A stretch of 64,000 nucleotides of DNA from an uncultured virus (IMG/VR IMGVR_UViG_3300014666_000034). Lineage: Duplodnaviria; Heunggongvirae; Uroviricota; Caudoviricetes. Positions 8,246-47,678 of the stretch are shown piece by piece. The position numbers were made by a program, and so were the translations under genes. A model generated the notes under the pieces. That model saw nothing but the letters and a program-made list of their open reading frames with translations. It did no database searches and was not told the DNA's origin. Numbering within the stretch: position 1 is the first letter of the stretch; every line of letters begins with the position of its first letter. The stretch is from the IMG/VR virus record IMGVR_UViG_3300014666_000034, positions 1-64,000 of that record. One strand, written 5' to 3'.

Positions 8246-11200
8246 TTAATGTTGTTTTGACATTTCCATCATTTTCTGAGGTATTTCCTTGTTAATGAAA
8301 GTATCTAGTCTTTCATTCATTTGAGTTAATACTTCTTTATCTGCGTTACCCTGTACTACAAGTAGTGGGCTATCGATATTCATAGAAACGTTGTTTCGAT
8401 TAGCCATAGCCATTGCCCTATAATCATACTTCGGCATATTAGCCAACACAAACTTACTTGGATCAATAGCAAAATCCCATAGCTTATCAGTCATATTCTT
8501 TGTAAAGATGGTATCGCCACCTACTGAATTGAGAACAGTACCATTTTTAGCAACAATCAATTCTGGCCCATCTTCGTTAACATATTTTAATCCTGGCTTA
8601 GAATTAGTAGTGCCACTTTTATATCCAACAGTGATATTTCTCTTTTTCACATCATCATAGGATATTGTTTTTCCGTCCCATACACCACTGTCATCAATAT
8701 AATAATACCCGTTGCCGTCTTTCGCTTTGATAGCCATGTCTGTAGCCATAGTACCATCAGATTTCAGATAGTAGTCTTTACCATCTTTAGACTTTCTCCA
8801 TGCAGATTTAACCATCTGACCATTCTCAGGCTCAAAATACCGCCAATCACCATTGCTATCGTCCCAACCAGTTTTCATATAGCCATCTTCGTTGAAGCTA
8901 TACTGCTTACCTCCAATGGTGTAGATTCCATCAGAAGCGTAATCATCATTAGAAGCTCCGTACCACCAGCCCCTAGAGTTCTTTTGCCACGTTCCGGAAC
9001 CGGTAATATCCTCAAATGAAGCCGAATTATTTCCATCTGCGGAGAATCCTTGTATTGTACTCACTAATTCTGTAAGCTTTGACAAATCAATATTAGCAAT
9101 GTCAATATTAATCTGTGAGATAGCTTCTGACACAGCGTCTTTAAATGTAGACACGGCGCTATTAGCTGACTCCCATGGAGAAGTTAGTTCGCTAGTCATG
9201 GTAACATTATAATCGGTTCCATACTTAGTCAGGGTATTGTAGACTGTTTTGTAGTTATCTTTTACCTGTCCGAGATATTCTTCTATTACCTTCTTCTGTG
9301 CATCAGTATTTGACTTAAGTTCATCAAGCTCTTTTTTCTTTGCGTCCTGATAGTCCTCTTCCTGCTTATCTAGGCTTTCAATAGTTTTATCATAAGCATA
9401 GTCAGCTTGTGTCTTAGCCAAATCTTTCTTTGCATCTGATAGCTGCTGTTCTAACTGTAATCTCTGTGCAATATCTTTCCTATCGGTAGACAGTGACAGT
9501 TCATCAATCTTTGCCTGTAAATTATTAATGTCAGTCTGTTTCTCGCTAATACTTTCAAGATAATCCTGATAGTCCTTTTCAGTCTGCAATGCTTTCTTCT
9601 TGGCAGCAATTAAATTATTCATATCATCTATCTGTGCCTGGATTGCATTATATCTAAACTGCAAGATAGCTTGTTCGGCTTCTTTCGTAGCTTTTACTGC
9701 TGATAATTGAGCGTTGGTATATTCATTGAGTTTTTCGTTATACTCGGCCTGTGTGAGAGAACCATTTTCATACATCTCATTAATAGCATTAATGGCTTCT
9801 TCGTAATCGGCCGCTTGTTGTTTAGCATTAGCATACTGTTGTCCTAATAGTGCAATTTTAGCAAGACCCTTAGATGTAAGCATTCCTCCGTCTAAAAGTC
9901 CATCGTCGCCAATTAGATCAGACATGGTGTTGATTCCATTGTTAATTCTATCGAGTGCACTAGAAATCCTCTCTAGCTCCTCAAATGGCAAGTTGATTAG
10001 TGCTTTTCTGAAATCGTTCATTGAAGAAACAGCATCATTCATAGAGGAATTTACAGCAATTAATTCCTCGTTGTATTTACGCCATTCATTTGAACCCACC
10101 TCAATTGTTCCTTTACTTACCGCTTTAGATAATTCATTGGATAGCGAATTATACTTACTATGCAACTGCTTATAAATTGCTTCCTGTTGATTAATTAACC
10201 GTTCATAATCTGTATTGGTAATAGATTCGCCCAATTCCTTTTGTAGATTTAAAAGATTATTACTATATGAAGCGTACTTATCCATTAACGAAACAAGACT
10301 ATCAAAATCATTGATAATATTTTCAAGTTTGGTCTGAGCAAGTTCTTTCAAAGTCTTTTTTGTTTCATCTATCTTCTTGCGAACATCTTCAGCTTTGTTA
10401 TACCATTCTTGATAACCTTTGATATTGTTTGCAATTACTTCATCAGTAACAGTTTCAATTTCAAGAGTGCCATTTTTGATTTTGTCTATGTAAGTGGGAG
10501 AGAGGTTGTAAGAATCTGCCTTCTTCTGGTATGTATCTAACTGAGACTGTAAGGCAGTTATTTTATTTGCCATTTCATCAATAGCTGTATCTGTAAGAGT
10601 GTTTTTAGGCTTCCAGTTTGATGTATCAGAAATTTTACTCTGGATGTCTTGGATCTTTTCGTCTACTCGTTTAATTGTAGTTTCTACCCAGTCAAATACT
10701 TCTGAGAAATCTTTTTTATCCTTTTTAGAGCCAGATGGTTTATTTGTTTTTGTACCAACTGTATACGATGCATTAACATTTGCTCCCTTGCCTTTATATT
10801 CGGAAGCAGATTTTATTGCGTCTTCGGCTTCCTTTTCTGCATTTCTTACAAGAGCTTCATAACCTTCTTTTCCGCCTATGTTGCCGCCAACACTACCTCC
10901 GACCTTTAAAGTATTTAAAGCTTTGAGTGCCGTATTAGCAGTTCCAATTACTCCAACAAGAGAGATAATATTCTCAATGTCACCACTAGTATCCAGTGCA
11001 TTTCCATTGAAAAATTCCTTCTCTAATACCAGTCCGGCCAGTGCAACTTTGGCTATGTCACTTTGAGTTGCTTCATCAATAATTCCTGGTATCTCACTAG
11101 CCGTAGCATTGGCAAGATCATTACTTACTTCTGCCGTATAAGCTTTTTCAGCGGCCAAATGCTCCTGTGCAATCGCTAATCGTGACATTACAACTTCTTC

Positions 11201-13078
11201 CGCATTAGCAACACCCATATTTTGAAGCATAGCAGTAGCAAGATTGGTATTTTCGTCTGTAAGTCCATTTAATACGCCAGAACTATCAATCCACGTTGTT
11301 ACGAGATCATTAAATGCAGATTTTGTAACATTTATATCTTTTGGTGAGGACGAAACCTTTTCAACGAAGTCAGTATAGGATTCTCCCAAGTCTTTAAAAT
11401 TATCTTTGAACTTTTTGTCATCTAGTAGAGCATAGTCAAACGGATTATCTTTGTCGGATATGCTCTTCATAATTTTATCTAAAGATTCAAAACCATCAGA
11501 TAGTGAGTTGATATTTGAGATTACGTCTTGTTTGGAAAGAGGAGAGAATGCGGCTTCACCAGACTTGGAGATATCATCTTGAACGTATTTCAATCTGGTC
11601 AGTTCATCAATGACCTGGTTAATGCTTAATCCATATTTGTCGGTTGATTCAACAATTTTATCAAAATTATCATCTTTTCCATCATTAGCCATGGATAGTA
11701 CATCTGTCTTTGTTAAACCTTTTAGGCTTTTAGCATAGTCTTTGATATTATCGTTGTTTGAAGAGAGTGCGTCTCTGAAATCGTAAAGTCCTGTGTTTGC
11801 GTGATCGAAAATATCATTCATTACATTTCCGTATCGTTTCCAATTGTCACTTGTTAAATCAATGGAATTTTTAACTTCATTGAGGTCATCTCTTGCTGAT
11901 AATATTTTAGATTCGTCACCAGAAATTAGTGCATCATTATATGCCTTCACGGCATTTGTAGCCTTATTATAACCTTCTGACAATTCGTTATCAGTGGCAA
12001 TTTGTGCTTTAAGTGCCTCATTATATTGATCTTGTGAATCGTCTAGTATTTTTTTGTTATTTTTTAAAGCATTAGTAGAATTATCGAGGAAACTAGTAAC
12101 AAAATTATTATCTTTGAATTTCTTATCAAGTTCTTGTATTTCGGTCGCTAAATCATGTATTATTTTATCAGCATTTTCAGCGTCACCCTTAAACTCAATA
12201 GTATAACCATTTATATCACCATTTGTAAAAGGATTAAGCTTTATACCCTGGTCTTGATACTTTGAAGCAATATCATAAATTTCTTGAGAATAATCATTCC
12301 TTAAATCACCAGTACTACCAAGAGAATATGTACGAGTTCTTTCCATTTCCTTCGTAGCGTTATCGATACCATTTCTGTTTTCAAGAAGATAATTCTGTGC
12401 CGCCACCTTATTTCTTGCTAATATAGCATCAGTCTGATCTTTGTAAGCATCAGTTACGAGATTTAATCGTCCATATTCATCACCATATTTTTCATTTAAT
12501 TCTTCTTGAAGTATTAGTAATTCATTCTTGATCTCGTGCTGACGCTCTTCTGTAGTATTGGCCTTTGTGAGTTCATCATGTAATTTCTTATACTTTTCCG
12601 CATAATCATTAATAGAAGAGGTAGTTTCTTTAAAAATATTTGCTGCATCAGCGGTGGCCTGACGTGTTTCTTCAATTGAACGTTTGTACATACTCCAACC
12701 AGCCACGCCAGCAGTAACGGCCATACCAACAAACAAAAGCGGATTCGCTATCATTGTCGACCAAAGACCTTTTAATGCTGTTGTGAAACCAGTGGTTGAT
12801 AAAGTGGCACTTTTCTGGGTTGTTGAAAGGGAAGTGGTGGAGATTGCTGTTTCAAGCTCTGCCTGAGACAGTCCTTTTACTGAACTAGATACTCCATTAA
12901 TATTGGTAGACCACACAGTACCGGCCTTAATGGCTTCCAACTGTGCCTTATTTAATTTCTCACTTGAAAGTATACATTTTTGCATACTAAGTTCTAGCGA
13001 ATTAAAGTATTCTGCAATATTATTACTATTTCTTAAACCAGTTAATGAATTTGAAAGATTTCCGAGGTCTTTAAGTTG
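8246..13078 (-). CDS. Tape measure protein, exon 2 (C-terminal 1610 aa; includes cell-wall-binding repeats)
   Basis: Long coiled-coil ORF before Dit; no RBS before its TTG; starts CAACTTAAA, complementary to the intron guide sequence. Confidence 0.85.
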   Translation of the reverse strand, partial: QLKDLGNLSNSLTGLRNSNNIAEYFNSLELSMQKCILSSEKLNKAQLEAIKAGTVWSTNINGVSSSVKGLSQAELETAISTTSLSTTQKSATLSTTGFTTALKGLWSTMIANPLLFVGMAVTAGVAGWSMYKRSIEETRQATADAANIFKETTSSINDYAEKYKKLHDELTKANTTEERQHEIKNELLILQEELNEKYGDEYGRLNLVTDAYKDQTDAILARNKVAAQNYLLENRNGIDNATKEMERTRTYSLGSTGDLRNDYSQEIYDIASKYQDQGIKLNPFTNGDINGYTIEFKGDAENADKIIHDLATEIQELDKKFKDNNFVTSFLDNSTNALKNNKKILDDSQDQYNEALKAQIATDNELSEGYNKATNAVKAYNDALISGDESKILSARDDLNEVKNSIDLTSDNWKRYGNVMNDIFDHANTGLYDFRDALSSNNDNIKDYAKSLKGLTKTDVLSMANDGKDDNFDKIVESTDKYGLSINQVIDELTRLKYVQDDISKSGEAAFSPLSKQDVISNINSLSDGFESLDKIMKSISDKDNPFDYALLDDKKFKDNFKDLGESYTDFVEKVSSSPKDINVTKSAFNDLVTTWIDSSGVLNGLTDENTNLATAMLQNMGVANAEEVVMSRLAIAQEHLAAEKAYTAEVSNDLANATASEIPGIIDEATQSDIAKVALAGLVLEKEFFNGNALDTSGDIENIISLVGVIGTANTALKALNTLKVGGSVGGNIGGKEGYEALVRNAEKEAEDAIKSASEYKGKGANVNASYTVGTKTNKPSGSKKDKKDFSEVFDWVETTIKRVDEKIQDIQSKISDTSNWKPKNTLTDTAIDEMANKITALQSQLDTYQKKADSYNLSPTYIDKIKNGTLEIETVTDEVIANNIKGYQEWYNKAEDVRKKIDETKKTLKELAQTKLENIINDFDSLVSLMDKYASYSNNLLNLQKELGESITNTDYERLINQQEAIYKQLHSKYNSLSNELSKAVSKGTIEVGSNEWRKYNEELIAVNSSMNDAVSSMNDFRKALINLPFEELERISSALDRINNGINTMSDLIGDDGLLDGGMLTSKGLAKIALLGQQYANAKQQAADYEEAINAINEMYENGSLTQAEYNEKLNEYTNAQLSAVKATKEAEQAILQFRYNAIQAQIDDMNNLIAAKKKALQTEKDYQDYLESISEKQTDINNLQAKIDELSLSTDRKDIAQRLQLEQQLSDAKKDLAKTQADYAYDKTIESLDKQEEDYQDAKKKELDELKSNTDAQKKVIEEYLGQVKDNYKTVYNTLTKYGTDYNVTMTSELTSPWESANSAVSTFKDAVSEAISQINIDIANIDLSKLTELVSTIQGFSADGNNSASFEDITGSGTWQKNSRGWWYGASNDDYASDGIYTIGGKQYSFNEDGYMKTGWDDSNGDWRYFEPENGQMVKSAWRKSKDGKDYYLKSDGTMATDMAIKAKDGNGYYYIDDSGVWDGKTISYDDVKKRNITVGYKSGTTNSKPGLKYVNEDGPELIVAKNGTVLNSVGGDTIFTKNMTDKLWDFAIDPSKFVLANMPKYDYRAMAMANRNNVSMNIDSPLLVVQGNADKEVLTQMNERLDTFINKEIPQKMMEMSKQH

Positions 13079-13103
13079 CAATATTTGGTAAAAATAGTAT
13101 AAT
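13076..13103 (+). promoter_or_regulatory. sigma-A promoter for the cargo lipoprotein, overlapping the 3' splice site
   Basis: TTGCAA (13076-81)-16 nt-TATAAT (13098-103). Confidence 0.55.
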
Positions 13104-13139
13104 AATTTTAATAGAATATAAATAAGGGAGAGTTATTTT

Positions 13140-13664
13140 ATGAAAAACTCAATTATTAAAATCTTTTCAATACTTATTGTATTAGGAGTAGTTATTAGTG
13201 GTTGCTCAAAAGAGTCCGAATATCATATTAAGCCGCCAAAGAACACAGACTTTAATTCTGCTAGTGTTACCGATTTGAATGATTCTGATATTGAGCTTAT
13301 AAAAGAGTGTATACCTAAGGTGGTAAAATGGTATAACTCAATAGATATTACAAAACCTCAACCTATTGATTTTGTAGCAGAAGAGGTAAGGGCTCCTGGT
13401 AATACTTTATTTAAAAACGAAATATATCAAACCTACCTAAATAACTTTACTTCGGGTATTAAACAAACAGATGAGGAAAAAGTAACCTTTAATCAAATCA
13501 ATATGATTAATGCTGTTTATGGGCAAATAGCTGAAATAATGATGACAAACGAAATTAACTATACGTTAGTAGGTGAAGGAGAAAACACAATAACGATTAA
13601 TAAGGATAGCTGGGCAAAATTAGGTGACAAAATTAAAGAGGCTATTGACTTTTATTATAATTAA
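13140..13664 (+). CDS. Lipoprotein of unknown function (intron cargo)
   Basis: MKNSIIKIFSILIVLGVVISG-C lipobox; GGGAG RBS. Confidence 0.8.
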   Translation: MKNSIIKIFSILIVLGVVISGCSKESEYHIKPPKNTDFNSASVTDLNDSDIELIKECIPKVVKWYNSIDITKPQPIDFVAEEVRAPGNTLFKNEIYQTYLNNFTSGIKQTDEEKVTFNQINMINAVYGQIAEIMMTNEINYTLVGEGENTITINKDSWAKLGDKIKEAIDFYYN

Positions 13665-13680
13665 TCATTTATAATAAACT

Positions 13681-13717
13681 AAAAAGGATCTCTGGAATTT
13701 AATGGAGGTTCTTTTTA
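13681..13717. terminator. Possibly bidirectional terminator
   Basis: AAAAAGGATCTCT...GGAGGTTCTTTTT imperfect hairpin. Confidence 0.5.
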
Positions 13718-13813
13718 TTATAGGTTACGAATAAACGTTCCGTCTGTTTTTTTAGTAACTTTTGGTATATAATAATACCATCATTTAGTAGTGTGGGGGG
13801 GGGTATTATTTTT

Positions 13814-14902
13814 ATGTTTCCTGATGAGATAAAGCAGATTCTTAATAAATATCAAAAATACAATGAAGGTAGTATTCAAAATATAAATAAAAATATTAAT
13901 ATTATAATTACCGAATTCAAAATCATTAACGCGAACTTAGCTAATGAACTTAAAAAGCTTGTCATAGATGAAAATACAAATAACAATGCAGAAGAACTTT
14001 TAAAGGATTCAATTGCATTGCGAGATTATATAAATTCTATTACCTCACTAGAATTTGATGACACTACAAAAATATTGGATGAATCAATACCTGTTTTTGA
14101 TAAGAAGGTATTTCCGTATCTTATCTCCGATGATTTATGCCCGTTTTGTAATGTTAAGTTGGTTCCACATATAATTTATTATCAAAGGAATCTTAATAAT
14201 CAATTAGTAAATGATGAAATTGAATGGAATAAATGCCCTAACTGTAAAAGATTATTTGTCTTAGACTACGATGCTGAAGGTTTTAACTTCAATAATACAA
14301 ACATAACATTAAACAAGGATAAGTATGACGAAATTCCGCTAATAGACATTTATAGTGTGATTGTATTAAGTAACACACTCAAGTGCTCATCAAATCACCG
14401 ATCAAAAGACTTGGTAGCAAAAATTCCTGTATTAAATGAAAGTGGTCAAATTATATACATAAAAATAAGCGCATCGTATTGCTTCGACTGTGAACGTTTT
14501 ACGATTCTCAAAGATGAATTTAATGCAATAAAAGATGTGGTTATGTGTAAGGTAATTGATGAAACAACCGAGGGACAAAGTAATAATTGCGATATGGAAA
14601 TGGGACAAAAGCAATCCATTCTTTATAACTATGGTTATAATGTTCAGACAAAGAAAAACTTATCAGGCCAACAGCGGCGTATTATTTTATCTTCTGTGAT
14701 AGAAGCAAACATAATGAATAGAAGAGATGTAATAAATCATATTAGCACTCTTATCGAAAGAGGCAGTAAAATATCATCTTGGAAAGATGCCACTCAAAAA
14801 TGGAAGACTGATAGGAAATTTGTGACTGAATATCAAAAGGATTGCTTACCGGAGGTTATTTTTAATAACATCATTTTAAAATACAGAAAATCTACAAAAT
14901 AA
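13814..14902 (+). CDS. Hypothetical protein with multiple CxxC Zn-binding motifs (intron cargo)
   Basis: CPFC, CPNC and CFDC motifs; upstream TATAAT. Confidence 0.75.
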   Translation: MFPDEIKQILNKYQKYNEGSIQNINKNINIIITEFKIINANLANELKKLVIDENTNNNAEELLKDSIALRDYINSITSLEFDDTTKILDESIPVFDKKVFPYLISDDLCPFCNVKLVPHIIYYQRNLNNQLVNDEIEWNKCPNCKRLFVLDYDAEGFNFNNTNITLNKDKYDEIPLIDIYSVIVLSNTLKCSSNHRSKDLVAKIPVLNESGQIIYIKISASYCFDCERFTILKDEFNAIKDVVMCKVIDETTEGQSNNCDMEMGQKQSILYNYGYNVQTKKNLSGQQRRIILSSVIEANIMNRRDVINHISTLIERGSKISSWKDATQKWKTDRKFVTEYQKDCLPEVIFNNIILKYRKSTK

Positions 14903-15109
14903 TATGATTTGAAACAGCACGGTAACAATAGAAGCAGGAGGACATTAGTAACAGTAATCTACCAAATTTCCTTATTGTAATTCGACTAATGTTAAAAAGG
15001 TTACGTACTTGTCTAAACCTGGTAGTGTGGTATTGGAGTATAATTACTGCTGATAATTTAGCATGGTAATAGTTGTAAGACTGATTTTTAGCGAATGGAG
15101 ACATAAACT

Positions 15110-15706
15110 ATGATATTATGTTGTACTACCTGTGGGAACAGTTTTAATTCAGATATAGATAATAATAAGTGCGACTATTGCGGTAATGAAACAGTTGTTT
15201 TAATTACTGACGAAGAACTAAAATCAATTCCAAAAAGTGAAATAGCCCTTCTTTCTAATACTCTAAAAGAAAAATACAAAAGCAATCCTAAATATAACTC
15301 TGATGTATGGGAGGCCAGAGTATCAAGAGACAATTATATAATTACTAAAGAACAAAATATAAATTTAAATAATAACATTTCAAACCACAAATTAACTACT
15401 GGATTTGATTTCGACGGTTATAAGATTACAAAATACATAGCGGTTATAAGTGGAAACGTAGTTTTGGGTACTGGTTTATTCAGTGAATTTGTTGGCTCGA
15501 TTAGTGATGTTTTAGGTACGACATCTACTCCTTTTGAAAACAAAATGGAGAAAGCAAAAGAAATTGCAATCGAAAAATTAATTATAAAATCAGCAACTAT
15601 TGGTGGAAACGCTATTATAGGTGTGGATTTTGATTTCTTTACTTTAAGCAATAATATGATCGCTGTTTCAGCGAACGGAACATCTGTCGTAATAGAAGAA
15701 GAGTGA
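15110..15706 (+). CDS. YbjQ/UPF0145-family protein with N-terminal Zn ribbon (intron cargo)
   Basis: CTTC/CDYC, then TTGFDFDGYKITKY...GGNAIIGVDFD...VSANGTSV. Confidence 0.85.
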   Translation: MILCCTTCGNSFNSDIDNNKCDYCGNETVVLITDEELKSIPKSEIALLSNTLKEKYKSNPKYNSDVWEARVSRDNYIITKEQNINLNNNISNHKLTTGFDFDGYKITKYIAVISGNVVLGTGLFSEFVGSISDVLGTTSTPFENKMEKAKEIAIEKLIIKSATIGGNAIIGVDFDFFTLSNNMIAVSANGTSVVIEEE

Positions 15707-15736
15707 ATCTTGATTGAAGCTAGTAAATCGCAAATG

Positions 15737-15803
15737 AAAATGGGGGTATCGTAGGATACTCCTTTTTTTGTACACAAAAAGAGCCAGTCAAATGACTGAC
15801 TCT
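15737..15803. terminator. Two adjacent terminator hairpins between convergent cargo units
   Basis: GGGGTATC-gtag-GATACTCC-TTTTTT (+) and AAAAA-GAGCCAGTCA-aa-TGACTGACTC (-). Confidence 0.65.
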
Positions 15804-15909
15804 AAATTAAATTGGAGTTATATATATAAAAATATTTAATTGTAAATCATGGTATATTTTTGATAATTTCGAATATAATGAGTAATTTGCATATAAAAAC
15901 TAAGCATAG

Positions 15910-16010
15910 AAAAAGGACTAGAATTAACTAGTCCCTTTCAACATATCGTGATAAAACATATCGTAACAAAACATATCGTATCAAAACTTATCTTAACAAA
16001 ATCATATCGT
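15910..16010 (-). ncRNA. Putative ~100-nt small RNA made of five 15-nt tandem repeats
   Basis: Promoter TTGACA(16045-40)-17-TATCAT(16022-17); ACGAUAUG-core repeats; terminator GGACUAG/CUAGUCC-UUUUU; no RBS or usable ORF. Confidence 0.6.
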
Positions 16011-16013
16011 GAA
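15940..16013 (+). repeat. Tandem repeat AACATATCGTRWYAA x5 (periods 15,15,15,16)
   Basis: CATATCGT cores at 15942, 15957, 15972, 15987 (degenerate CTTATCTT) and 16003. Confidence 0.9.
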
Positions 16014-16063
16014 CTTATGATATCATTTATTGTATTATATGTCAAGTGATTTTTTTTGTTACT

Positions 16064-16852
16064 TTATTCTGGTGCAGATATAGAAATTGCTCTACCTTCG
16101 CCCCTTTTTATTAAAGCTCCCCTCTCCAGCATTATATTTATAATTTCTGACGCATATACTTCGGATACATTACATTTCTTAACAATCTCATCTTTTGCCC
16201 ATGTAAATCCAAGAGTTTTACCATTACCTCTATTAGTAGTATGCCATTCAGACAACGCTGTTTTCACTTGTTCAAACCAATATTCCGGATTTCCCTTATC
16301 GTCATCAATATTAAATAATTTTAAGATGTCGCAAGAAAAGTCGCAATATGACTCAAAGTGGGTTGTTTGAGATGTATTTTGACTCGTGAAATATAAATGG
16401 ACTTGTTTTCCTTTATATTTTAATCTACTCATTATTGGTATCATATCACTATCAGATGTCACGATTGAATATGTATCTATATTAGGATCCTTATATGTGG
16501 ATTCAATTGCGTCTATACTCAGTTCGATATCGGATGCATTTTTTCTATATTTATCATCTCTGTTATTACCATATACATTTCTTATTTGGACTCTTTGTTC
16601 TTGTAGTTTTCTGAGACTTACTTTTACCTGTTCGAAATCAGCGTATGCTCTAAACGATCTGATTTTATCTCTACCATATAAGTTATTAAAATACTCACAT
16701 ATATTATATTCATCATCCGTAACATCTATAGCATATCTTTTCATTGTATAATACAAATTGTCATAATCAATTAATATGCAAACATTATTGGTACTCTCAA
16801 CTGCATCTTGAACCTCCCTATTCACTTCTTCATTTAAGCTCATTCCACCCAT
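16064..16852 (-). CDS. NYN-domain (LabA/DUF88, PIN-like) ribonuclease with C-terminal helical domain (intron cargo)
   Basis: ILIDYDN, RAYADF, KNASDIELSIDA and IVTSDSDMIP motifs. Confidence 0.88.
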   Translation of the reverse strand: MGGMSLNEEVNREVQDAVESTNNVCILIDYDNLYYTMKRYAIDVTDDEYNICEYFNNLYGRDKIRSFRAYADFEQVKVSLRKLQEQRVQIRNVYGNNRDDKYRKNASDIELSIDAIESTYKDPNIDTYSIVTSDSDMIPIMSRLKYKGKQVHLYFTSQNTSQTTHFESYCDFSCDILKLFNIDDDKGNPEYWFEQVKTALSEWHTTNRGNGKTLGFTWAKDEIVKKCNVSEVYASEIINIMLERGALIKRGEGRAISISAPE

Positions 16853-17494
16853 AATAATTCTCCTAACGTATAATTATTTACCATAAATTACCATATAGTT
16901 ATTATACGACTAAGATTGATATATTTCTACAAGAACGTAGGTTCTTATTAGGGTGATATTTACATCTAAATACTGTAAATATATAACTATGTTTTTACAT
17001 TTATTTGAATCAAATATATAAATATCCAACGCTCTGTGAAGTGTTGATATCGTGTACACTTTGGAACATGCATTAACAGCACAATAAAATATGGCTTTCA
17101 TGTACTGTGAGGAGTGGTGCTCTCTGAACACTCCCTATCATTAATGATCTTATCCCGACATTGCTTGCGCAATTGTTACCATCGGATTATATATCATGAC
17201 TAAACGTAGATAGGGCTAGCTGCTTCATTGGTGATTGTACATCTGTCGGGAATTATTTTTTATCCCTAGAAATCTCACTACGGTGTGTAAACCGTTTGAC
17301 TTATTTACCTTATTTTTCGGTTTCTTCAAAATAGAAGAGTAGTGAGTATTACACTTTTAAGCAATTAATCCTCTTTTTATTTTAAAACTTTCGTCTCTAG
17401 GAATTGTAAATACCGCCATTATGGTATTTCCTTCCCCTAGATAGGCCAACTTAAATCCCTCGGAAATTTAAGCGTAACTCTTGTTTCAGAGTTA

Positions 17495-19057
17495 ACCGTA
17501 GTTTTTTATAAATGCGGCTATACCAGCACCAGATAGTGTAGTAGATAAAATACCAAAACCATTTATTGTCTTATCTAATACATTATTAAACGTCGTACCA
17601 GAATCTATAAGAAACTTTAAGAAATTTGAATTTAGTATAGTCTGTGATAGTGATTGGAACGAAGCTTCATACTGTTGTGTTTTCGCATCAATTGACTGAA
17701 TCCACTTGCTCTGTTCTTCATAAGCTGATCCGGAAGAATTTATAGATGCATCAAGAGCCTTTTGCACTTGCCCAGATTGGAATGACTGAATTAGTGCCGC
17801 AACGCTGTTGCCGCGTTGTTTTCCTGCTATGACCTCAAGAAGGTCGGCCTGGTCAGTTTGGGAAATTTTCGACCATACTTCAGATATTCCCTTTAGAATC
17901 TCGTATGTAGACTTGAAATTGCCTTTGTTATCAAAAATATTTACTGTTCCACCAGTGCGGTTTAAAATCTGAGTTTGTATTTTTGAGATGGATTCTACAT
18001 TGTCATACTCTTCTCCGAGTGCTTCCAGCTCGCCTTTCATGCCTCGTATTCTCATGCTTAATATTTTTAGCGCATTACCCATTTCTGAGGCGTTCTGAAT
18101 TATTTCCGTACCACCGGTTAGCATAGCAAGAGTCTGATTAATATCGTTTCCAGCAAGACGAAGAGAAGAGGCTGAATTTTTAAGTCCTTCTCCCAGAGAA
18201 GCAGCATCAGTGGCAAATTCATTACCAAGTTTGTTAAGTGAATCGACAATTGTTATACTCTTTGTACTTTCGATATTAAACGCCTTCATTGCTGTTACTA
18301 AATCAGAAACAGCAGTTTTATCATCGACTTCCCCTACGTTTGAGTAAATCGATGATACTTTAGCCATGTTGGCGCTTTCATCTATTGTGAATCCAAGTTT
18401 TTTCCAGGTCGCTGTCTGCTCAATAAGACTGGATACTGTTCTACCGAGTTTTTGAGCTTCTACATTTGAACTTTGAAGAATCTGTCTATATTTTGAACCC
18501 GTTTCATCGGATACTTTATAGAGATTGGTTAAGGCTGTATTTATCTCGATCACAGAATCCTTCATTTTACGTAATCCACTAATGGCAGCCATAATTCCAC
18601 CAGAAGGAAGTAACCATGAAGCAAATTTACTTGCGTCTGCCTTAAACGAATCACCCCAGGTCTTACCAAGCAAGTTCATATCTCTGGATGCAATTTTGAT
18701 CTTATTGAAGCTGGCATCTAAACCCTTAAATTCAGACAGTGAAAGATTAGCCTTTCCCATTTTGGTGATGATGTCCTGGATCTGATCACCAAACATCTTC
18801 ATGGCTTTGGTATTGTTGTCAGCCCAAGTTTTAACTGTATTGATTTTTGATAACTGCCTAGATTCAGATACAATCTTTCCAATTGCTGAAGCCGTATCAT
18901 TTAAGTCCTTTTTTGCCTTCTTAGCTTCAGAAGTACCGACTTTTATTTCCGTTTTTAAATTGGCGTCTTTTTGTAATTCCTTTAAAATGCTATTTAATTC
19001 ACTTCTCGCTTTTGCTTTATCGAATATAAGCTCAACGAGAGTTCTAAAATCAGCCAT
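17495..19057 (-). CDS. Tape measure protein, exon 1 (TP901-family TMP domain, 521 aa)
   Basis: INTALTNLYKVSD...IVDSLNKLGNEFA...GNALKILSMRIRG; ends ...KNYG at the predicted 5' splice site (GGU|UAA). Confidence 0.88.
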
Positions 19058-19871: not shown

Positions 19872-20093
19872 TTACACCGTTTCACACGGCAATAGTATCC
19901 ATTTGGCATTTTTATGTATTTTTAATTTTGAAGAAATAAAGTCTGAAACTTCTTCAACTGGCTTATCTACATTTTCTAATACACGAAAGTCAAATGCATC
20001 ATCATCATCAATACACATCACTTTTAGAAATTGTCGTTCAGTAATAATGTTACCTTCATCTGTACTCAAAGCCTTGTCCATACTCATGCCCAT
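19872..20093 (-). CDS. Hypothetical protein
   Basis: 73 aa, GGAGG RBS. Confidence 0.55.
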   Translation of the reverse strand: MGMSMDKALSTDEGNIITERQFLKVMCIDDDDAFDFRVLENVDKPVEEVSDFISSKLKIHKNAKWILLPCETV

Positions 20094-20109
20094 ACCTCCA
20101 TAAAATATA

Positions 20110-20313
20110 TTATCTTTTTATAACAAACAATTCAAAAGGACACACCCCCAAAGCTTTAGACAGGAGCCATGCAGTTATTAATGTGACATTTTGAGGATTG
20201 TTATTTTCTATATTTGTTATAGTAGTGTGATGTAAACCAGTTTTGCGTGATAGATCATGTACGCTCATATTTCTGGCAATACGATATTTTAGCAAATTGT
20301 TATCAATATGCAT
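20110..20313 (-). CDS. XRE-family HTH regulator
   Basis: LLKYRIARNMSVHDLSRKTGLHHTTITNIENN...LSKALGV. Confidence 0.85.
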   Translation of the reverse strand: MHIDNNLLKYRIARNMSVHDLSRKTGLHHTTITNIENNNPQNVTLITAWLLSKALGVCPFELFVIKR

Positions 20314-20492
20314 AACTATACCTCGTTAAATTGAAGTCCTATTATTGTTATCTGGTATAGTATTTGTATGTGTACGTTTGTTTATCATGGTAAAATTATA
20401 CAATAAATATTGGTTAACCTTTTAACCATTATGTGTGATATAATTGGGGATTGGGAGCGTTTGTATATAACATACTAAATCGATGTGTATGT

Positions 20493-21032
20493 TTAACTCA
20501 TAATAATATTTTTAGAAAGAAATTTATCAATATCCCATATGTATTTAATTCGTTTTTTATTTCCAGTAATTTCGATAGGATTGTATTTCAATAAGTCCTT
20601 TTCATTAAAAGATTTTTTATTTATTTCACTTATCATTTTTACAAAATCGCAAATACTCTGATAGTATGTGATTTCTTTTCCAGATTCCTCATTTCTAAAA
20701 TTGAATAGAAATCCTGCAAACACGTTTGCATATTTTCCATACTCTATGAGCGCCACGATTTGATGTTTATGTATCATTTTTGATGGCTGTTTGCCCTCTA
20801 TACTTATATCTTCAAAGCTGAAGGCATTATTTTTCGTAGTCTTCAATTCAAGACAATAAAAGATAAAAGAGTGACTATCAAATATGAAACAGTCACATGG
20901 GTTCTTCCAACTAAATCGTAGAGATGAAGATTGATTGAAACTCTGTGGGGGATCTGGTAATCGATAGTATAAACAATAATCCGGAATCGAAGCTTTTATA
21001 GCACTTTCAAAATGCTTTCCTGAGTTGATAAT
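20493..21032 (-). CDS. RecU-like Holliday junction resolvase (probable ATT/ATC start)
   Basis: Frame is open upstream of the tracked TTG: NSGKHFESAIKAS...YYRLPD...NPCDCFIF...LELKTT (PD-(D/E)xK); RBS GGAAGGTG. Confidence 0.7.
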   Translation of the reverse strand: MINSGKHFESAIKASIPDYCLYYRLPDPPQSFNQSSSLRFSWKNPCDCFIFDSHSFIFYCLELKTTKNNAFSFEDISIEGKQPSKMIHKHQIVALIEYGKYANVFAGFLFNFRNEESGKEITYYQSICDFVKMISEINKKSFNEKDLLKYNPIEITGNKKRIKYIWDIDKFLSKNIIMS

Positions 21033-21100
21033 TTCACCTTCCTTTTCTGTAAAATAAAAACTCCACCAGATTAACCAGTGGAGTTGTATTTCATATTATT

Positions 21101-21871
21101 TTAATCAGTCACCAAATCTTTATCATAATATCCATCCTTGCGAAGAAGCTTACGAATGTATTCTAATCCCTTTTTAGTAACATATGTAACTGGCCTATAT
21201 TTTCCGTCAGCACATGGTGTTTCTACGACTGCGAATAGATTTTGTGTCATAAATCTCTGATATGGAACATTTGAATTATCCTGATAGAATAAAATACCTT
21301 TTCCACGAAGATAAGACAACATGGTATTTCTGCCGATTTTTAGTTGTTTGGCTACCATATTTGTGTGATACAACCCTTCTGTATTCATAAGATCATCATA
21401 AAATTGCTTAAGTTCTTTATTGGTATCGGCTAACTCAGTAATGATTTTATCTTTTAATTCTCCCGAGATCGATGGAAGGTAATATTCTATAAATTTCTTT
21501 TCCATACCATTTTCGATAGAACCACCAGTAAGTCTTATCTTCTTTAAGTGAGATGATATTTCTCTGCGATAAATTTTAGCCTCATTCTTACGAGACTGCA
21601 TCAAGACATCATACATAGCATCTTCTGATATGAACAGTGACTTTTGATTGCCGCCAGGGGTGTATTTTAAAAATATACCCTTCTCAGTCTCAGGAATATC
21701 CGCTTGTTTTAGCATCTGACTTACATTTTGCACATTTATCCAACCAGCAATTTCTTTTGCTTCAAACAGCGGGTCTTCAATACTCCGATAAAGTTTTACA
21801 GATTTTCCTAATACCTTTGTTTCATTAATAACTTCTAATAATTCGATTTCTTTCATTATTAATTCCTCCAT
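21101..21871 (-). CDS. Phage antirepressor (Bro-N + KilAC-like)
   Basis: DPLFEAKEIAGWI...FISEDAMYDVLMQSRK; AKQLKIGRNTMLSYLR...YVTKKGLEYIRK. Confidence 0.85.
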   Translation of the reverse strand: MEELIMKEIELLEVINETKVLGKSVKLYRSIEDPLFEAKEIAGWINVQNVSQMLKQADIPETEKGIFLKYTPGGNQKSLFISEDAMYDVLMQSRKNEAKIYRREISSHLKKIRLTGGSIENGMEKKFIEYYLPSISGELKDKIITELADTNKELKQFYDDLMNTEGLYHTNMVAKQLKIGRNTMLSYLRGKGILFYQDNSNVPYQRFMTQNLFAVVETPCADGKYRPVTYVTKKGLEYIRKLLRKDGYYDKDLVTD

Positions 21872-22088
21872 TCTTTATCCTCTGCTTTAGTAGAAGAGTA
21901 GTGAACGTGGTCAGAGGATTCCCACTTCATCGGGTAATTAGGCCGATTATTCACTACCCAAGAGATGAGTTCAATAACCTCTCATCTTACAGATATGAAA
22001 ATACCTGTATCAACTTATTGTTGCTCATACAGATATTCTCCGTTTAAATACCAAAAGAGCGACTTCGAAATGAAATCGCCCTTTCAAC

Positions 22089-22598: not shown

Positions 22599-22632
22599 GC
22601 ATTATGTACCATGCCTTTCTATAGCCTTACAG

Positions 22633-22887
22633 TTACTTCTTTTCCAAGTACTGTTTAAATACCTGATGAAGACCGGTACTTGCTAATCCACTTACCATGC
22701 CCCCAAGTGCAATTTGTGGACTAACAGTCCAACCATTAATCCATGAAGCAAGGAAAATGCCCAATACCGCACAAATGGTAGGAATATACTTATTATCTAC
22801 ATCTGTTACCCATTGTTTAATTACATAACCAGTACAAAGACAAATGCCAAGTACAACTGGTAGCATATATTCATTTAAAAATTCCAT
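22633..22887 (-). CDS. Phage holin
   Basis: 84 aa, 3 hydrophobic segments; DNKYIPTIC..LG, GLASTGLHQVFKQ. Confidence 0.88.
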   Translation of the reverse strand: MEFLNEYMLPVVLGICLCTGYVIKQWVTDVDNKYIPTICAVLGIFLASWINGWTVSPQIALGGMVSGLASTGLHQVFKQYLEKK

Positions 22888-23027
22888 GATAAAACCTCCT
22901 TGTTACTTTGAATAATAGGAAAATGGCAAACCTTCCTGTCTATTGGAAATATCAATTTCCTCACGGGTATGTTATCCACTTTTACATGTATTGTCTTACA
23001 TAACCTCATCTAATATTGTCTCTTTAT

Positions 23028-23487: not shown

Positions 23488-23520
23488 TAATAGTCCTCCT
23501 ATAACAGCAAGAGATGAGCA

Positions 23521-44176: not shown

Positions 44177-45088
44177 TCAACCACAAGGAAAGATGATATT
44201 TTGGCTTTCGTTACATTTATTTTTCCTATATTTTTGCACCCTAATCTTTGTTTGATTCCTTATAACTTCCTTTTTACAATTACTGCAATATTTTGTTGAA
44301 TAATCATGTTTATTAGCTTTCTCAACAATCACACCGCACATTTCACAGCGTTTGTATTTCTTGTGATCACGTACATTGTAGTATTGCTTCTGATATTTTC
44401 TTATCTCTCCATCGAGGCTCCTATTTATATATCTAACATAAAAATTATCTTCTGTTATAAAATCAAATCTACTTAGTAATTTTGTCTTATCTTCGTATTC
44501 GCCTATAAGTTTACAATTATTAAAACATCTTAGTAAGAACCTCTCAATTAATTCCTTATAGTTTTCCCATGGTAATTCCATTTTTTGTCTTTGTAGCTTT
44601 ACCTTTATATATATAGATTCCTGTATGGCGTTATCTATGGTAGCTGTAACTGCGTCAGCATCTATATCTTTTTCGCCTTCAATCCACTGAAAATATAAGT
44701 GTTTTGGTGTTTTCAGTAATTCCATGTACTCTTTTGATAAAATTATTTCTTTATCAAAATATCTAGTATAGATATTATTTACTTTTTGCCTAATGAAAGA
44801 GCACCAGTTTTCATCTTTTGTCATTGATTTATAGTATTTATACTCAACGCTTGACCAAGCGTTAAATACTTGTCCCAAATCTGTTTCCAATAAATCTTTT
44901 CTTACATTAAACTTTATTGATTTTGTGTAAATGCGCCTTTTATTATTGGAAGACCAGATAGAAGAGCAGAACGATTTGAATATCTTGTCCTTTTCTTCTT
45001 CTGATCCAGCCTCTTTATAATCCTCAATTATTTCATACAAATACGTTTCGTTGCTATCGTATATATGTATCACCCACCTCAAACTCAT
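44177..45088 (-). CDS. Protein coupled to the YonO-like RNAP (possible promoter-specificity factor), C-terminal Zn ribbon
   Basis: Overlaps RNAP stop; helical body; CEMC...CSNC. Confidence 0.55.
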   Translation of the reverse strand: MSLRWVIHIYDSNETYLYEIIEDYKEAGSEEEKDKIFKSFCSSIWSSNNKRRIYTKSIKFNVRKDLLETDLGQVFNAWSSVEYKYYKSMTKDENWCSFIRQKVNNIYTRYFDKEIILSKEYMELLKTPKHLYFQWIEGEKDIDADAVTATIDNAIQESIYIKVKLQRQKMELPWENYKELIERFLLRCFNNCKLIGEYEDKTKLLSRFDFITEDNFYVRYINRSLDGEIRKYQKQYYNVRDHKKYKRCEMCGVIVEKANKHDYSTKYCSNCKKEVIRNQTKIRVQKYRKNKCNESQNIIFPCG

Positions 45089-47678
45089 AATATTTTCCTA
45101 GATATTCATAGGAATCATTTGTTTTATAAGGAACCTCTTTAATGGAAATGTTTCTTTTGGGATTTGTGTTATTCTTAAGATTTAGAATAATATATTCACC
45201 ATACGCTGACCAAGCTAGTGACTTGCTAATAGAAAGACTGCTATAAGATACCTTAATTATGTAATTAGCAATTAAATATTCGTCCATGTTTAAATCTTTG
45301 GTGATTCTTGATTTAAACTCATCAATCAGAATGCCCATTGGAAAACTATCATGTTTAGCAGCTGAGTTATCTCTTACATTTAAATGCTTCTTGATTTCGC
45401 TAGCATAATCATTAATGTATTTCCTGCATATCCTCATCACCTTTTTGTTGGATAGATCTAGATCATTATCTATAATCAAACATCTGGTATCAACTAAATT
45501 ATTAATGTCATTGTCCCATAAAACTCTTTTCTTTTCCCACGTGCAAATATAATCACATAACTCATTCATAGGGGAAGGAGAGAAGTATGCATTTAGCTTT
45601 ATCTTGTCTTCTGATTTTTCTATACCTTTATTTTTCTCACGCAATGATAAAAAGGTTTTCATTTTTTTGGGATAATTAAAGAGTAGAAAATATGGCAATT
45701 GCTTCATATACTTTCGCAGTCCACTATTCATATGCCACCTAAATCCGGTTTTGATAAAATCAATCTCTTTACCCTGGAACACTCTTAAAAGAGAAGAATA
45801 GTCTGAATATAACTTCTTGATGTCATCATTTACTGCATATCTATTTTCAATACTTGTGGCGACGTTAGTTATTTCCCCAATACGATTATCTCTTGTCATA
45901 ACCTCATATTCGATGATATTTTCCTTTGTATATGGCTTTGCTTTTGCAGTCACTTTATCCTCTATATCTAATATTATCGGCTTTTCGATTTTAGAGGATA
46001 CGAGGATTTTATCTTCGCTCAACAGGAAAATATCTCCATCCGTATCGGCACCCCCCTGTTGTGGCAGAGAAATATCATTCATATTAAACATAACAACATC
46101 CTGGTCTTTAAAATGGCTAAACCATTTTGATGTAATTTCGTTCTGAACAATTTTAACCTTATTTACCTCTGATGGGTCAACCAAGGGTGATCTAAATGAT
46201 ACACAGTCTCCGATATTAAAGTTCCCACTATATAATTCTCTTTCGCCTAAGCAACCCACCGGTTCCTCACCAACAACATATTGCAAATACCCGTACATAT
46301 CACCAACACCGGTATGATAAAATCCAGAGCAATATATTTTTCCTACTTTCATCTCATCTATAGACTTTTTTAGCTTACGATATATAAATTGCTTCACGGC
46401 AGGATCTTTTAGCATAACATCATTTATCATAGCAGCTTCTAGATATTTACTTTCCGGTTCATAATCTTCAGTGTTATTTATACCCATGAATTTATAGGTA
46501 TAAAACTTATCACCTTTGATTATTTTTTCAAATAGTTCTGTTGTATATCTTGCCAATTTAATTATTTTACCATCATTGCTATTATCAAGAACATCGTAAA
46601 CACCATCAGTCCCACTATTATAATAATCTACGTATTTCTTATTCCACAGATCCAGGCACTGCAAATACTGAAAGTTCATACGTGTATATTTGTTTAAGTG
46701 TTTAACATGATGACTGTATTTGCTTATACCAAGGCTAAAACCATATTTGTTAACTGTTTTCATGTATTCAATCCATGCCTCGTTGCCATATTTGTCTTTG
46801 AAAATTTTGTGGCCTTTAAACATAGATGTATTCCAGATACAATCTACATCGTCTATATGATGCCGCTTACCATATATGTCGGTTATGTATTCATATCCCC
46901 ACTCTCTCAGAATATCTCTAAATGGAACATATACTGAATAGCCTTTCATGAGTGGAATCCGTACTTGTGAACCGATTGCGTCATAATCAAGACCTATCTG
47001 TGAACTTACTTTTTCCACAAATTCTTTTTCATGACAGCCGCTTCCGTCAAAAGGAGAAATTTTAATATCTCGATAACCTTCCTCAATTTCTCTGGAATTA
47101 TATTTCTTTATTTTTCCAGTTTCTTTATCCACAAACTCTTTTTCTTTTTCTACTACATACTTAATCCACTGATGTTTGATTATCTTTTCGTACTCATCAA
47201 CTATTATAATTCGTGGCATATAATCTTTGATCAATGTGCATGAGCTGAATAATAAACATCTTTGTGATTCATATTTAGAAATGACACATTCAGTAATCTC
47301 AATGTCCATCTGGGTTATTATATATAGCTCATCAAATATCTCATCGCAAACAAAAGCTGTTATTCCGTCCTTCCCCTGAGATGCCGATTTACCAAAGCGA
47401 GTATAGTGAACACCATTATATGTAAATCCAGTATCTAATATTTGCCGTAAGGCCGACTCTTGCTTTGGATTTTTTTTGGCAACCATAAGGATTATTTCAC
47501 TTATATGAGTAGATTTTCTACCGCGTAGCTTTTCTATTTGGTCAAACAATAGTGAATCACCTTGTTCTATTAAGTACTCGTTTTCAATTTCAGTTTTTTT
47601 GTCAATAGAAACATCGAAATCCTGCTTTATTAGTATACTGATTGGTATTTTCACAAGCGTATATTGCGTATTATTGAT
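45054..47678 (-). CDS. YonO-like single-subunit (RdRP-related, double-psi barrel) DNA-dependent RNA polymerase
   Basis: SPFDGSG, QVRIPLMKG, FRSPL, GGADTDGD catalytic loop, IGEITN, QGKEIDFIKTG; apparent ATC start 8 codons upstream of tracked GTG. Confidence 0.88.
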   Translation of the reverse strand: MNNTQYTLVKIPISILIKQDFDVSIDKKTEIENEYLIEQGDSLLFDQIEKLRGRKSTHISEIILMVAKKNPKQESALRQILDTGFTYNGVHYTRFGKSASQGKDGITAFVCDEIFDELYIITQMDIEITECVISKYESQRCLLFSSCTLIKDYMPRIIIVDEYEKIIKHQWIKYVVEKEKEFVDKETGKIKKYNSREIEEGYRDIKISPFDGSGCHEKEFVEKVSSQIGLDYDAIGSQVRIPLMKGYSVYVPFRDILREWGYEYITDIYGKRHHIDDVDCIWNTSMFKGHKIFKDKYGNEAWIEYMKTVNKYGFSLGISKYSHHVKHLNKYTRMNFQYLQCLDLWNKKYVDYYNSGTDGVYDVLDNSNDGKIIKLARYTTELFEKIIKGDKFYTYKFMGINNTEDYEPESKYLEAAMINDVMLKDPAVKQFIYRKLKKSIDEMKVGKIYCSGFYHTGVGDMYGYLQYVVGEEPVGCLGERELYSGNFNIGDCVSFRSPLVDPSEVNKVKIVQNEITSKWFSHFKDQDVVMFNMNDISLPQQGGADTDGDIFLLSEDKILVSSKIEKPIILDIEDKVTAKAKPYTKENIIEYEVMTRDNRIGEITNVATSIENRYAVNDDIKKLYSDYSSLLRVFQGKEIDFIKTGFRWHMNSGLRKYMKQLPYFLLFNYPKKMKTFLSLREKNKGIEKSEDKIKLNAYFSPSPMNELCDYICTWEKKRVLWDNDINNLVDTRCLIIDNDLDLSNKKVMRICRKYINDYASEIKKHLNVRDNSAAKHDSFPMGILIDEFKSRITKDLNMDEYLIANYIIKVSYSSLSISKSLAWSAYGEYIILNLKNNTNPKRNISIKEVPYKTNDSYEYLGKYYEFEVGDTYIR

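What the first reader, a model, noticed from the sequence alone, without database searches (positions are those of the whole stretch)
13681..15936. Terminators inside the intron imply read-through or trans-splicing
Seen: at least two hairpin + U-tract terminators oriented for the minus (TMP) strand (15910-15934, 15776-15802) and two possibly bidirectional ones (15737-15769, 13681-13717) lie between the intron core and exon 2. Inference: host RNAP should stop before exon 2. Full TMP mRNA would need the phage RNAP or antitermination, or two RNAs annealing through the clamp helix (trans-splicing). Either route would tie TMP production to the lytic programme while cargo is expressed in lysogeny.
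Basis: inference. Interest (0 to 1): 0.72.

Follow-up and report, generated by a model that had tools for sequence, protein, structure and literature searches.

The report
Terminators inside a cargo-carrying phage intron
A prophage's tail tape-measure gene is split by a 4.4-kb self-splicing-type intron that carries independent genes with their own stop signals, and the phage's own RNA polymerase most likely reads through those signals, as it must do all along the late genes.

Summary
Partly confirmed. Two of the four hairpins (15934-15910 and 15803-15780) are good intrinsic-terminator look-alikes on the tape-measure (minus) strand. The other two (15742-15763 and 13681-13717) fold well only on the plus strand and end antisense cargo genes.

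The intron is real by comparison. A roughly 430-nt RNA core follows exon 1 in 16 viral contigs and 7 bacterial genomes. It covaries strongly and has a guide that pairs with both exon ends, a U.G pair at the 5' splice site and a terminal G in 15 of 15 copies. Joining the exons is in frame and matches an uninterrupted relative. No Rfam family recognises the core.

The terminators end a sense-strand cargo cassette (NYN nuclease gene plus a repeat array). They are not special to the intron. Sense-strand terminator-like hairpins are about as frequent across the rest of the late region, in the flanks of relatives, and in SPbeta's YonO-dependent late operon. The phage encodes a YonO homologue.

Best reading: phage-polymerase read-through followed by cis-splicing. 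Trans-splicing is unsupported but not excluded. I found no RNA evidence for a splice junction. Earlier notes of this scan describe the same kind of intron on other DNA.

The parts
17495..19057 (-). TMP exon 1 (521 codons, ends ...AFIKNYG with GGU)
   Evidence: ORF. Pfam PhageMin_Tail, E 6e-22. The splice position comes from alignment with relatives.
13079..17494 (-). Intron, 4416 nt, from UAACUC... to ...AUAUUG (terminal G at 13079)
   Evidence: Boundaries. In-frame junction NYG|QLKDLG; the uninterrupted relative L005 reads ...AFVENF QDLKSAG... across the same point.
17064..17494 (-). Conserved ribozyme-like core. Hairpin a 17494-17475; P10 guide 17456-17447; P1 guide GCC 17446-17444; helix c 17441-17396; second exon-binding stretch 17392-17385; P3 17373-17369/17113-17109; P4, P5 and P6 helices; proposed P7 17122-17117/17069-17064; P8 17108-17076
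   Evidence: Alignment A1. 96.7% of cells paired against 37-44% when slid; 36 of 89 pairs with compensatory change; 0 of 500 shuffles reach this. P1 statistics. Coordinates. Single-sequence fold z -3.35.
16064..16852 (-). Sense-strand cargo gene: NYN-domain protein (262 aa). A promoter-like site lies at 16929-16901.
   Evidence: Pfam NYN, E 4e-22. phrog_21480. Promoter-like site matches 10 of 12 positions.
15938..16045 (-). Promoter-like site (16045-16017, 11 of 12 positions with TG) followed by five 15-nt tandem copies of ACGATATGTTTT-like units (15938-16010)
15910..15934 (-). Sense-strand intrinsic-terminator-like hairpin T1
15780..15803 (-). Sense-strand intrinsic-terminator-like hairpin T2
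15742..15763 (+). Plus-strand terminator of the YbjQ-domain cargo gene
15110..15706 (+). Antisense cargo gene: zinc-ribbon plus YbjQ domain (198 aa)
   Evidence: Pfam YbjQ_1, E 3e-22.
13793..14902 (+). Antisense cargo gene: 369 aa with CxxC pairs and no family match
13681..13717 (+). Plus-strand terminator of the 174-aa gene
13140..13664 (+). Antisense cargo gene: lipoprotein-like (signal peptide then Cys). Its start abuts the 3' splice site. A promoter-like site at 13076-13103 straddles the junction.
   Evidence: An antisense ORF abuts the 3' splice site in 15 of 15 introns.
8246..13078 (-). TMP exon 2 (starts CAA CUU AAA GAC = QLKD...)
   Evidence: The first 9 nt are complementary to the guide at 17455-17447.
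45054..47654 (-). YonO-type single-chain RNA polymerase homologue (866 aa)
   Evidence: tblastn hit to SPbeta yonO. BLASTP 24% identity over 660 aa, E 7e-17. DTDGD aligns with YonO's DNDGD.

Best explanation
The two sense-strand terminators are the 3' ends of an autonomous cargo cassette. This cassette is the NYN nuclease gene with its own promoter-like site, followed by a promoter-like site, a five-copy repeat array and the tandem terminators T1 and T2.

The cassette sits inside a group-I-like intron that splits the tape-measure gene. It converges on three antisense cargo genes, which have their own plus-strand terminators.

In the lysogen, the host polymerase would transcribe these cassettes and stop at their ends.

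In the lytic cycle, the whole late module is transcribed by a terminator-tolerant machinery, most likely the phage's YonO-type polymerase. That module carries similar hairpins about every 2 kb. The polymerase runs through T1 and T2 and through the antisense genes to exon 2.

The 5' core then joins exon 1 to exon 2 in cis. It holds the last 10 nt of exon 1 on a two-part guide and captures the first 9 nt of exon 2 by a P10-type pairing.

Shown here by computation:
- the intron's anatomy and covariation;
- the hairpins;
- the YonO homologue;
- the equal density of hairpins inside and outside the intron.

Inferred:
- that the hairpins terminate the host polymerase;
- that the YonO-type enzyme ignores them;
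- that splicing occurs.
For: Intron:
- The core is conserved in 16 viral contigs, the window among them, and in 7 of 68 genome hits.
- 36 of 89 pairs show compensatory change, and 96.7% of cells are paired.
- P1 has U.G in 13 of 13 rows. Its middle pair is AU 8, CG 2, GC 2, GU 1.
- Exon position -10 covaries with the guide (AU 9, GC 4) through a synonymous Lys codon.
- P10 has 91 of 108 positions paired in register, against 48, 62 and 32 in other registers. 29 of 10,000 permutations reach this.
- The intron ends in G in 15 of 15 copies.
- No Shine-Dalgarno sequence is visible before exon 2 in any printed junction. The junction codon is ACG or AGG (no start codon) in 5 of 15.
- The uninterrupted relative L005 reads through the junction.

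Terminators.

Not specific to the intron:
- 22 sense hairpins lie in the other 59.6 kb of the window's minus strand.
- Across 14 distinct introns there are 13 in 45.5 kb. Their flanks hold 76 in 293 kb.
- The tool found 18 sites against 8.6 +/- 3.3 expected in 20001-40000, 13 of them on the minus strand.

Polymerase:
- YonO homologue with an intact DxDGD motif.
- From the abstract and passages of Forrest et al. 2017 (PMC5467207): YonO transcribes SPbeta's late genes as one operon, pauses little, and the authors note that the flap domain of cellular polymerases is needed for hairpin-dependent pausing and termination.
- That SPbeta operon carries 9 sense hairpins by my scanner and 7 annotated minus-strand stem-loops. 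Two of these flank its TMP gene yomI.
Against: - There is no RNA evidence. The one RNA run that shares words holds only contigs 90-95% alike on cargo genes and on one 170-nt piece of exon 2. It shows no joints.
- The passages I read of the YonO paper do not test intrinsic terminators.
- The promoter used by the YonO-type enzyme here is unknown.
- The proposed P7 has no compensatory change.
- No Rfam intron family matches the core, even at E up to 10.
- Hairpin-plus-U sites between late genes could also be RNA-stability elements or partial terminators.
Confidence: 0.55

Rival explanations
1. Leaky read-through or phage-encoded antitermination of the host polymerase. T1 and T2 act as attenuators that lower the dose of full-length TMP pre-mRNA. 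Splicing is still in cis.
For: Tandem intrinsic terminators are rarely absolute (general knowledge). TMP is needed in few copies per virion (general knowledge). Similar hairpins lie between many late genes.
Against: Genes downstream of TMP also need transcription. No antiterminator gene was recognised among the 46 window proteins scanned against PHROGs, though many had no match. A YonO homologue is present.
Confidence: 0.2
2. Trans-splicing. Exon 1 plus the core, and a separately started RNA carrying the intron's 3' end plus exon 2, meet through the P10 pairing and the terminal G.
For: The whole catalytic core lies 5' of the cargo. The 3' side needs only G plus up to 9 nt of exon 2 that pair with the guide. 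The 10-bp hold on exon 1 would suit a slow second step. Natural trans-splicing group I introns exist (recalled, not checked here).
Against: Exons are collinear and on the same strand in 15 of 15. Promoter-like sites are at chance level, and none near exon 2 scores above 9 of 12 within 13100-13680. There is no significant tail-to-core complementarity (z -1.1 to +1.5 in 12 introns). An antisense gene fills the space next to the 3' splice site in 15 of 15. 6 of 14 distinct introns have no sense terminator.
Confidence: 0.07
3. No splicing. The tape measure is made as two polypeptides, and the conserved RNA after exon 1 has another role.
For: The exon 1 frame ends in a stop codon. Exon 2 begins with TTG or ATG at the junction in 10 of 15. 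Rfam does not call an intron.
Against: No ribosome-binding site precedes exon 2. 5 of 15 have ACG or AGG at the junction. The RNA's guide covaries with both exon ends. Relatives L005, L008 and L012 have one continuous gene.
Confidence: 0.06

Closest known systems
Group I introns in tape-measure genes of Bacillus cereus-group prophages (TMP-IVS1, -IVS2, -IVS3; Tourasse and Kolsto 2008, PMC2504315; passages read)
   Same: A self-splicing-type intron sits in a prophage TMP gene. Its guide is adapted to the insertion site. Most copies lack a homing endonuclease.
   Different: Those are compact IA1/IA2 introns, at most with one endonuclease gene. Here the core escapes Rfam. The guide strand is interrupted by a helix. 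Between 0.9 and 5.7 kb separates the 5' and 3' splice sites. The space holds up to six unrelated genes on both strands, with their own promoters and terminators.
SPbeta late operon transcribed by YonO (Forrest et al. 2017, PMC5467207; abstract and passages read)
   Same: Phage with a YonO-type polymerase. A long same-strand structural module. Sense stem-loops between late genes and on both sides of the TMP gene. A few antisense genes embedded in the module.
   Different: SPbeta's yomI is uninterrupted. Read-through of terminators by YonO is inferred from the one-operon finding and was not measured in what I read.
T4 td, nrdB and nrdD (sunY) introns with internally expressed ORFs (recalled, not checked here)
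   Same: Phage group I introns that carry a gene with its own expression signals. In sunY the 3' splice site lies far from the core.
   Different: Those carry one sense-strand endonuclease gene and no terminators facing the host gene. Here the cargo is multi-gene and mostly antisense.
IStrons
   Same: A group I-type core at the 5' end with a long non-ribozyme stretch before the 3' splice site.
   Different: No transposase is present here. The cargo is accessory or defence-like genes.

Membership tests
Group I self-splicing intron | P1 helix between the 5' exon end and an internal guide, with a U.G wobble at the cleavage site | tested here: met
   Columns 19-21 pair with 73-75, with 100% of cells paired. 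U.G occurs in 13 of 13 rows. The middle pair is AU 8, CG 2, GC 2, GU 1.
Group I self-splicing intron | Guanosine as the last intron nucleotide | tested here: met
   G precedes exon 2 in 15 of 15 introns.
Group I self-splicing intron | P10 pairing of the 3' exon with the guide just 5' of the P1 strand | tested here: met
   91 of 108 positions are paired in register, against 48, 62 and 32 when shifted. 29 of 10,000 permutations reach this.
Group I self-splicing intron | Core topology: P3 to P8 with the P3/P7 pseudoknot and the P4-P6 stack | tested here: inconclusive
   P3, P4, P5, P6 and P8 each have at least one compensatory pair. The order P7-J7/3 (3 nt)-P3-P8-J8/7 (6 nt)-P7' fits. However, P7 has no compensatory change (7 of 13 rows are unpaired at one of its pairs). 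P4 has only 3 pairs, and J5/4 is 64 columns long.
Group I self-splicing intron | Match to Rfam Intron_gpI (RF00028) | tested here: not met
   No hit at the gathering score or at E up to 10, even on the core alone. No hit in 7 related loci either. This is a detection model, not a defining property.
Group I self-splicing intron | Guanosine-dependent self-splicing | not testable with these tools
   Needs in vitro transcription and a splicing assay.
Group II intron | 5' GUGYG, domain V, 3' AY | tested here: not met
   The intron starts UAACU, UGGCU, UGACU or UACUC and ends UG, CG or GG. No Rfam group II match. Nothing is conserved just upstream of exon 2.
Intrinsic (factor-independent) terminator | G+C-containing hairpin followed directly by a U run on the transcribed strand | tested here: met
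   Met for 15934-15910 and 15803-15780 on the minus strand, and for 15742-15763 and 13681-13717 on the plus strand. Not met for the latter two on the minus strand. Actual termination was not tested.
YonO-type single-chain RNA polymerase | Homology to SPbeta YonO, including the DxDGD metal-binding motif | tested here: met
   24% identity over 660 residues, E 7e-17. DTDGD aligns with DNDGD. tblastn hits yonO in SPbeta-like phages. No Pfam match.
Naturally trans-splicing group I intron | Intron halves transcribed from separate units and joined by base pairing | tested here: inconclusive
   Exons are collinear in 15 of 15. No significant tail-to-core pairing. Promoter-like sites are at chance level. 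No transcript data are available.

The most novel reading that the evidence does not exclude
The intron works as a two-piece machine. The 5' core cuts at exon 1 as soon as it folds and keeps exon 1 on its 10-bp bipartite guide. The internal terminators then decide whether exon 2 ever arrives. TMP synthesis, and so tail assembly, would be gated by terminator read-through, or served by a separately made exon 2 RNA captured through the 9-bp P10. That would be natural bimolecular group I splicing in a phage.
Probability: 0.1. Interest if true: 0.8.

Novelty: new variant of a known kind. Interest (0 to 1): 0.5.

Why it matters
Phage group I introns are known as compact elements with at most one homing-endonuclease gene. 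Here an essential late gene tolerates kilobases of independently regulated genes inside its intron, complete with terminators that face the host gene. In relatives those genes are often defence-like: GmrSD, KwaB-like, MazF/PemK, PBECR nuclease.

This gives a concrete, testable case of how YonO-type phage polymerases deal with intrinsic terminators. It also shows how a ribozyme finds a 3' splice site several kilobases away.

If read-through is polymerase-specific, the layout is a simple way to keep lysogenic accessory genes and lytic structural genes on the same DNA without cross-talk.

Tried and rejected
- **Rfam.** Searched at the gathering score on the window and on 7 related loci. Searched at E up to 10 on 12800-17800 and on the core alone. 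No intron, ribozyme or large-RNA family matched. The listed weak hits (PK-HAV, PyrG leader, snoRNAs) are chance.
- **RNA evidence.** One run (X1) shares 5% of the sampled words. When laid it gives 5 contigs 90-95% alike, so from a relative. They fall on 12717-12886, 13314-13656, 14300-14496, 14582-14854 and 15299-15594. There are no joints and no cover on the core or exon 1. This shows neither splicing nor its absence, and DNA carry-over cannot be excluded.
- **First register for P10.** Off by one base, it gave 48 of 108 paired positions. Corrected.
- **First P1 model.** Exon -1 paired with column 125. Replaced by pairing with columns 73-75, which covaries.
- **RNAalifold's pairing of exon columns 1-8 with 544-551.** It has only one-sided changes and two A.C cells, and it competes with the proposed P7. 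Left open.
- **Clamp between the intron's 3' tail and the core.** duplexfold energies are not better than shuffled tails (z -1.1 to +1.5; 12 of 15 introns tested). A first attempt timed out.
- **The 73-aa ORF at 16910-17131.** It lies inside the RNA core and has no family match. Rejected as a gene.
- **Literature searches**. Judged from titles and abstract starts of the listings only, they turned up no description of a multi-gene cargo intron in a TMP gene or of terminators inside a phage intron. Subscription journals are not covered.
- **Supplements** of the two papers I read were not opened.
Full report
**Setting**

The window is part of a 121.5-kb provirus record. Nearly all its genes run on the minus strand.

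- A 521-codon ORF (17492-19057, minus) carries the PhageMin_Tail domain.
- A 1611-codon ORF (8246-13081, minus) carries choline-binding repeats.
- A tail protein gene follows.
- Between the two ORFs lie three plus-strand genes: 13140-13664, lipoprotein-like; 13793-14902, no family; 15110-15706, zinc ribbon plus YbjQ.
- One minus-strand gene also lies there: 16064-16852, NYN domain.

**Is there an intron?**

Fourteen related viral loci were found with the exon 1 protein.

- Three (L005, L008, L012) have one continuous tape-measure frame of 1790-2229 codons.
- The others are split at the same residue (...AFIKN[YF][GD] | [QH]LKDLGN...), with 3-7 kb in between.
- L005 reads ...AFVENF QDLKSAG... 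straight across the point.

The DNA after exon 1 is conserved for about 450-480 nt between phages whose exon 1 proteins are only 55-61% identical. Nothing is conserved upstream of exon 2 except a G.

An exact 15- or 17-mer of this core, filtered with an nhmmer profile, found the core in 16 viral contigs, the window among them. It also found it in 7 of 68 genome hits: [Clostridium] asparagiforme, Enterocloster lavalensis, Lacrimispora, two other Lachnospiraceae or Clostridium isolates, a Bacillota MAG and a Ruminococcus.

**Structure**

On a 13-sequence alignment (A1), RNAalifold gave 89 pairs, 36 with compensatory change.

My group-I-style model is P1, hairpin a, helix c, P3, P4, P5, P6 with extensions, P8, and a P7 pseudoknot.

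- It has 96.7% of cells paired, against 37-44% when partners are slid.
- 0 of 500 shuffles reach it.
- The proposed P7 (GAGCAY/AUGUUC) is conserved but shows only one-sided changes, so it is not proven.

Evidence on the two splice sites:

- The last three exon nucleotides (GNU) pair with GN'C directly 3' of a stretch complementary to the start of exon 2.
- The U.G is invariant (13 of 13). The middle pair is AU 8, CG 2, GC 2, GU 1.
- Exon positions -4 to -10 pair with a second stretch, GAAAGUUU, beyond an inserted helix. Position -10 covaries (AU 9, GC 4) through a synonymous lysine codon.
- The P10-type pairing with exon 2 has 91 of 108 positions paired in register, against 48, 62 and 32 in shifted registers. 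29 of 10,000 permutations among 12 distinct combinations reach it.
- In the window this pairing is 9 contiguous pairs (CAACUUAAA with UUUAAGUUG).
- The intron ends in G in 15 of 15 copies.
- No purine-rich ribosome-binding site is visible before exon 2 in any printed junction. The junction codon is ACG or AGG in 5 of 15.

Rfam finds no intron family, even at E up to 10 on the core alone. Group II hallmarks are absent.

I read it as a divergent group-I-type intron at 17494-13079 (4416 nt), with its core at 17494-17064. Splicing itself is inferred.

**Cargo**

Intron lengths run from 890 to 5702 nt in 15 copies. Every copy has an antisense ORF abutting the 3' splice site, most often a small zinc-ribbon protein.

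Longer copies add a varied set of genes:

- GmrSD;
- a KwaB-like protein;
- a PemK/MazF-type protein;
- a PBECR3 nuclease;
- an S24/HTH repressor-like protein;
- Ant/Bro, P63C and YbjQ.

The window carries the NYN gene on the sense strand and three antisense genes.

**The hairpins**

On the minus strand, 15934-15910 (-15.4 kcal/mol, then UUUUUCU) and 15803-15780 (then UUUUUGUGU) are canonical. The other two are good only on the plus strand, where they follow the YbjQ and lipoprotein-like genes.

The layout is therefore a convergent pair of cassettes.

- From the minus side: a promoter-like site at 16929-16901, the NYN gene, a strong promoter-like site at 16045-16017, five 15-nt repeats, then T1 and T2.
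- From the plus side: a promoter-like site at 13076-13103, three genes and two terminators.

**Are the terminators a special obstacle?**

No.

- A uniform scanner finds 24 sense hairpins on the window's minus strand. Two are in the intron. 16 lie between structural genes from 189 to 36,700, including 19116-19091 just before exon 1 and 8240-8217 just after exon 2.
- The tool's own scan gives 18 sites against 8.6 +/- 3.3 expected in 20001-40000, 13 of them on the minus strand.
- Over 14 distinct introns there are 13 sense hairpins in 45.5 kb. Their flanks hold 76 in 293 kb.
- 6 of the 14 introns have none.

**Polymerase**

The 866-aa protein at 45054-47654 is a YonO homologue.

From the abstract and passages of Forrest et al. 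2017:

- YonO transcribes SPbeta's structural and lysis genes, apparently as one operon starting upstream of yonK.
- It pauses little.

That SPbeta stretch (yonK to yomA, 37.9 kb) holds 9 sense hairpins by my scanner and 7 annotated minus-strand stem-loops. Two of these flank the TMP gene yomI. It also holds two embedded antisense genes. Read-through by YonO-type enzymes is thus a fair inference, but I saw no direct measurement of it.

**RNA data**

The single RNA run that shares words holds only diverged contigs on cargo genes and a short piece of exon 2. It shows no joints. It decides nothing.

**Verdict**

- Observation: half right.
- Read-through by the phage polymerase followed by cis-splicing is the best reading (0.55).
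- Attenuated host-polymerase read-through comes second (0.2).
- Trans-splicing (0.07) and no splicing (0.06) are unlikely.

Earlier notes of this scan on other genomes describe the same kind of cargo-carrying TMP intron and the same question. They agree with this reading but are not independent evidence. Four literature searches aimed at this question found no description in print (listings only).

Noticed in passing
window 15938-16045 (minus strand): A strong promoter-like site (TTGACA-17-TG-TATCAT, 11 of 12 positions) lies just after the NYN stop codon. Five tandem 15-nt units (ACGATATGTTTT-like) follow, then terminator T1. This could be a small repeat RNA or a set of protein-binding sites.
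   Followed up: partly
window 62035-62103 (+): Rfam Twister-P5 ribozyme (52.9 bits against a gathering score of 37.6), just upstream of a sliding-clamp-like gene at 62138-63304.
   Followed up: no
L003 11375-13456; L009 8097-10000; L015 and L016 10823-12109: Further insertions of 1.3-2.1 kb interrupt TMP exon 1 of relatives at residues 457, 258 and 337. Each holds a 355-478-aa sense ORF, so they are probably other introns. Rfam calls none of them.
   Followed up: no
window 13076-13103 (+): The -35 hexamer of the promoter-like site for the antisense lipoprotein-like gene straddles the 3' splice junction (TTG|CAA on the plus strand).
   Followed up: no
L087 and L092, about 40-60 nt before the 3' splice site: The two shortest introns share CAAGCGGUUUUUC near their 3' end. 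It is complementary to the J3/4-P4 5' strand of the core. This may be an alternative pairing.
   Followed up: no
window 16931-16946: A perfect inverted repeat, AAGAAC-GTAG-GTTCTT, abuts the -35 of the NYN promoter-like site. It may be an operator.
   Followed up: no
window 19116-19091 and 8240-8217; SPBc2 record 37363-37337 and 30439-30416: Sense-strand terminator-like hairpins sit immediately before and after the TMP gene, both here and in SPbeta.
   Followed up: partly
window 38536-38609 and 43954-44028 (minus strand): Two tRNA genes inside the prophage.
   Followed up: no
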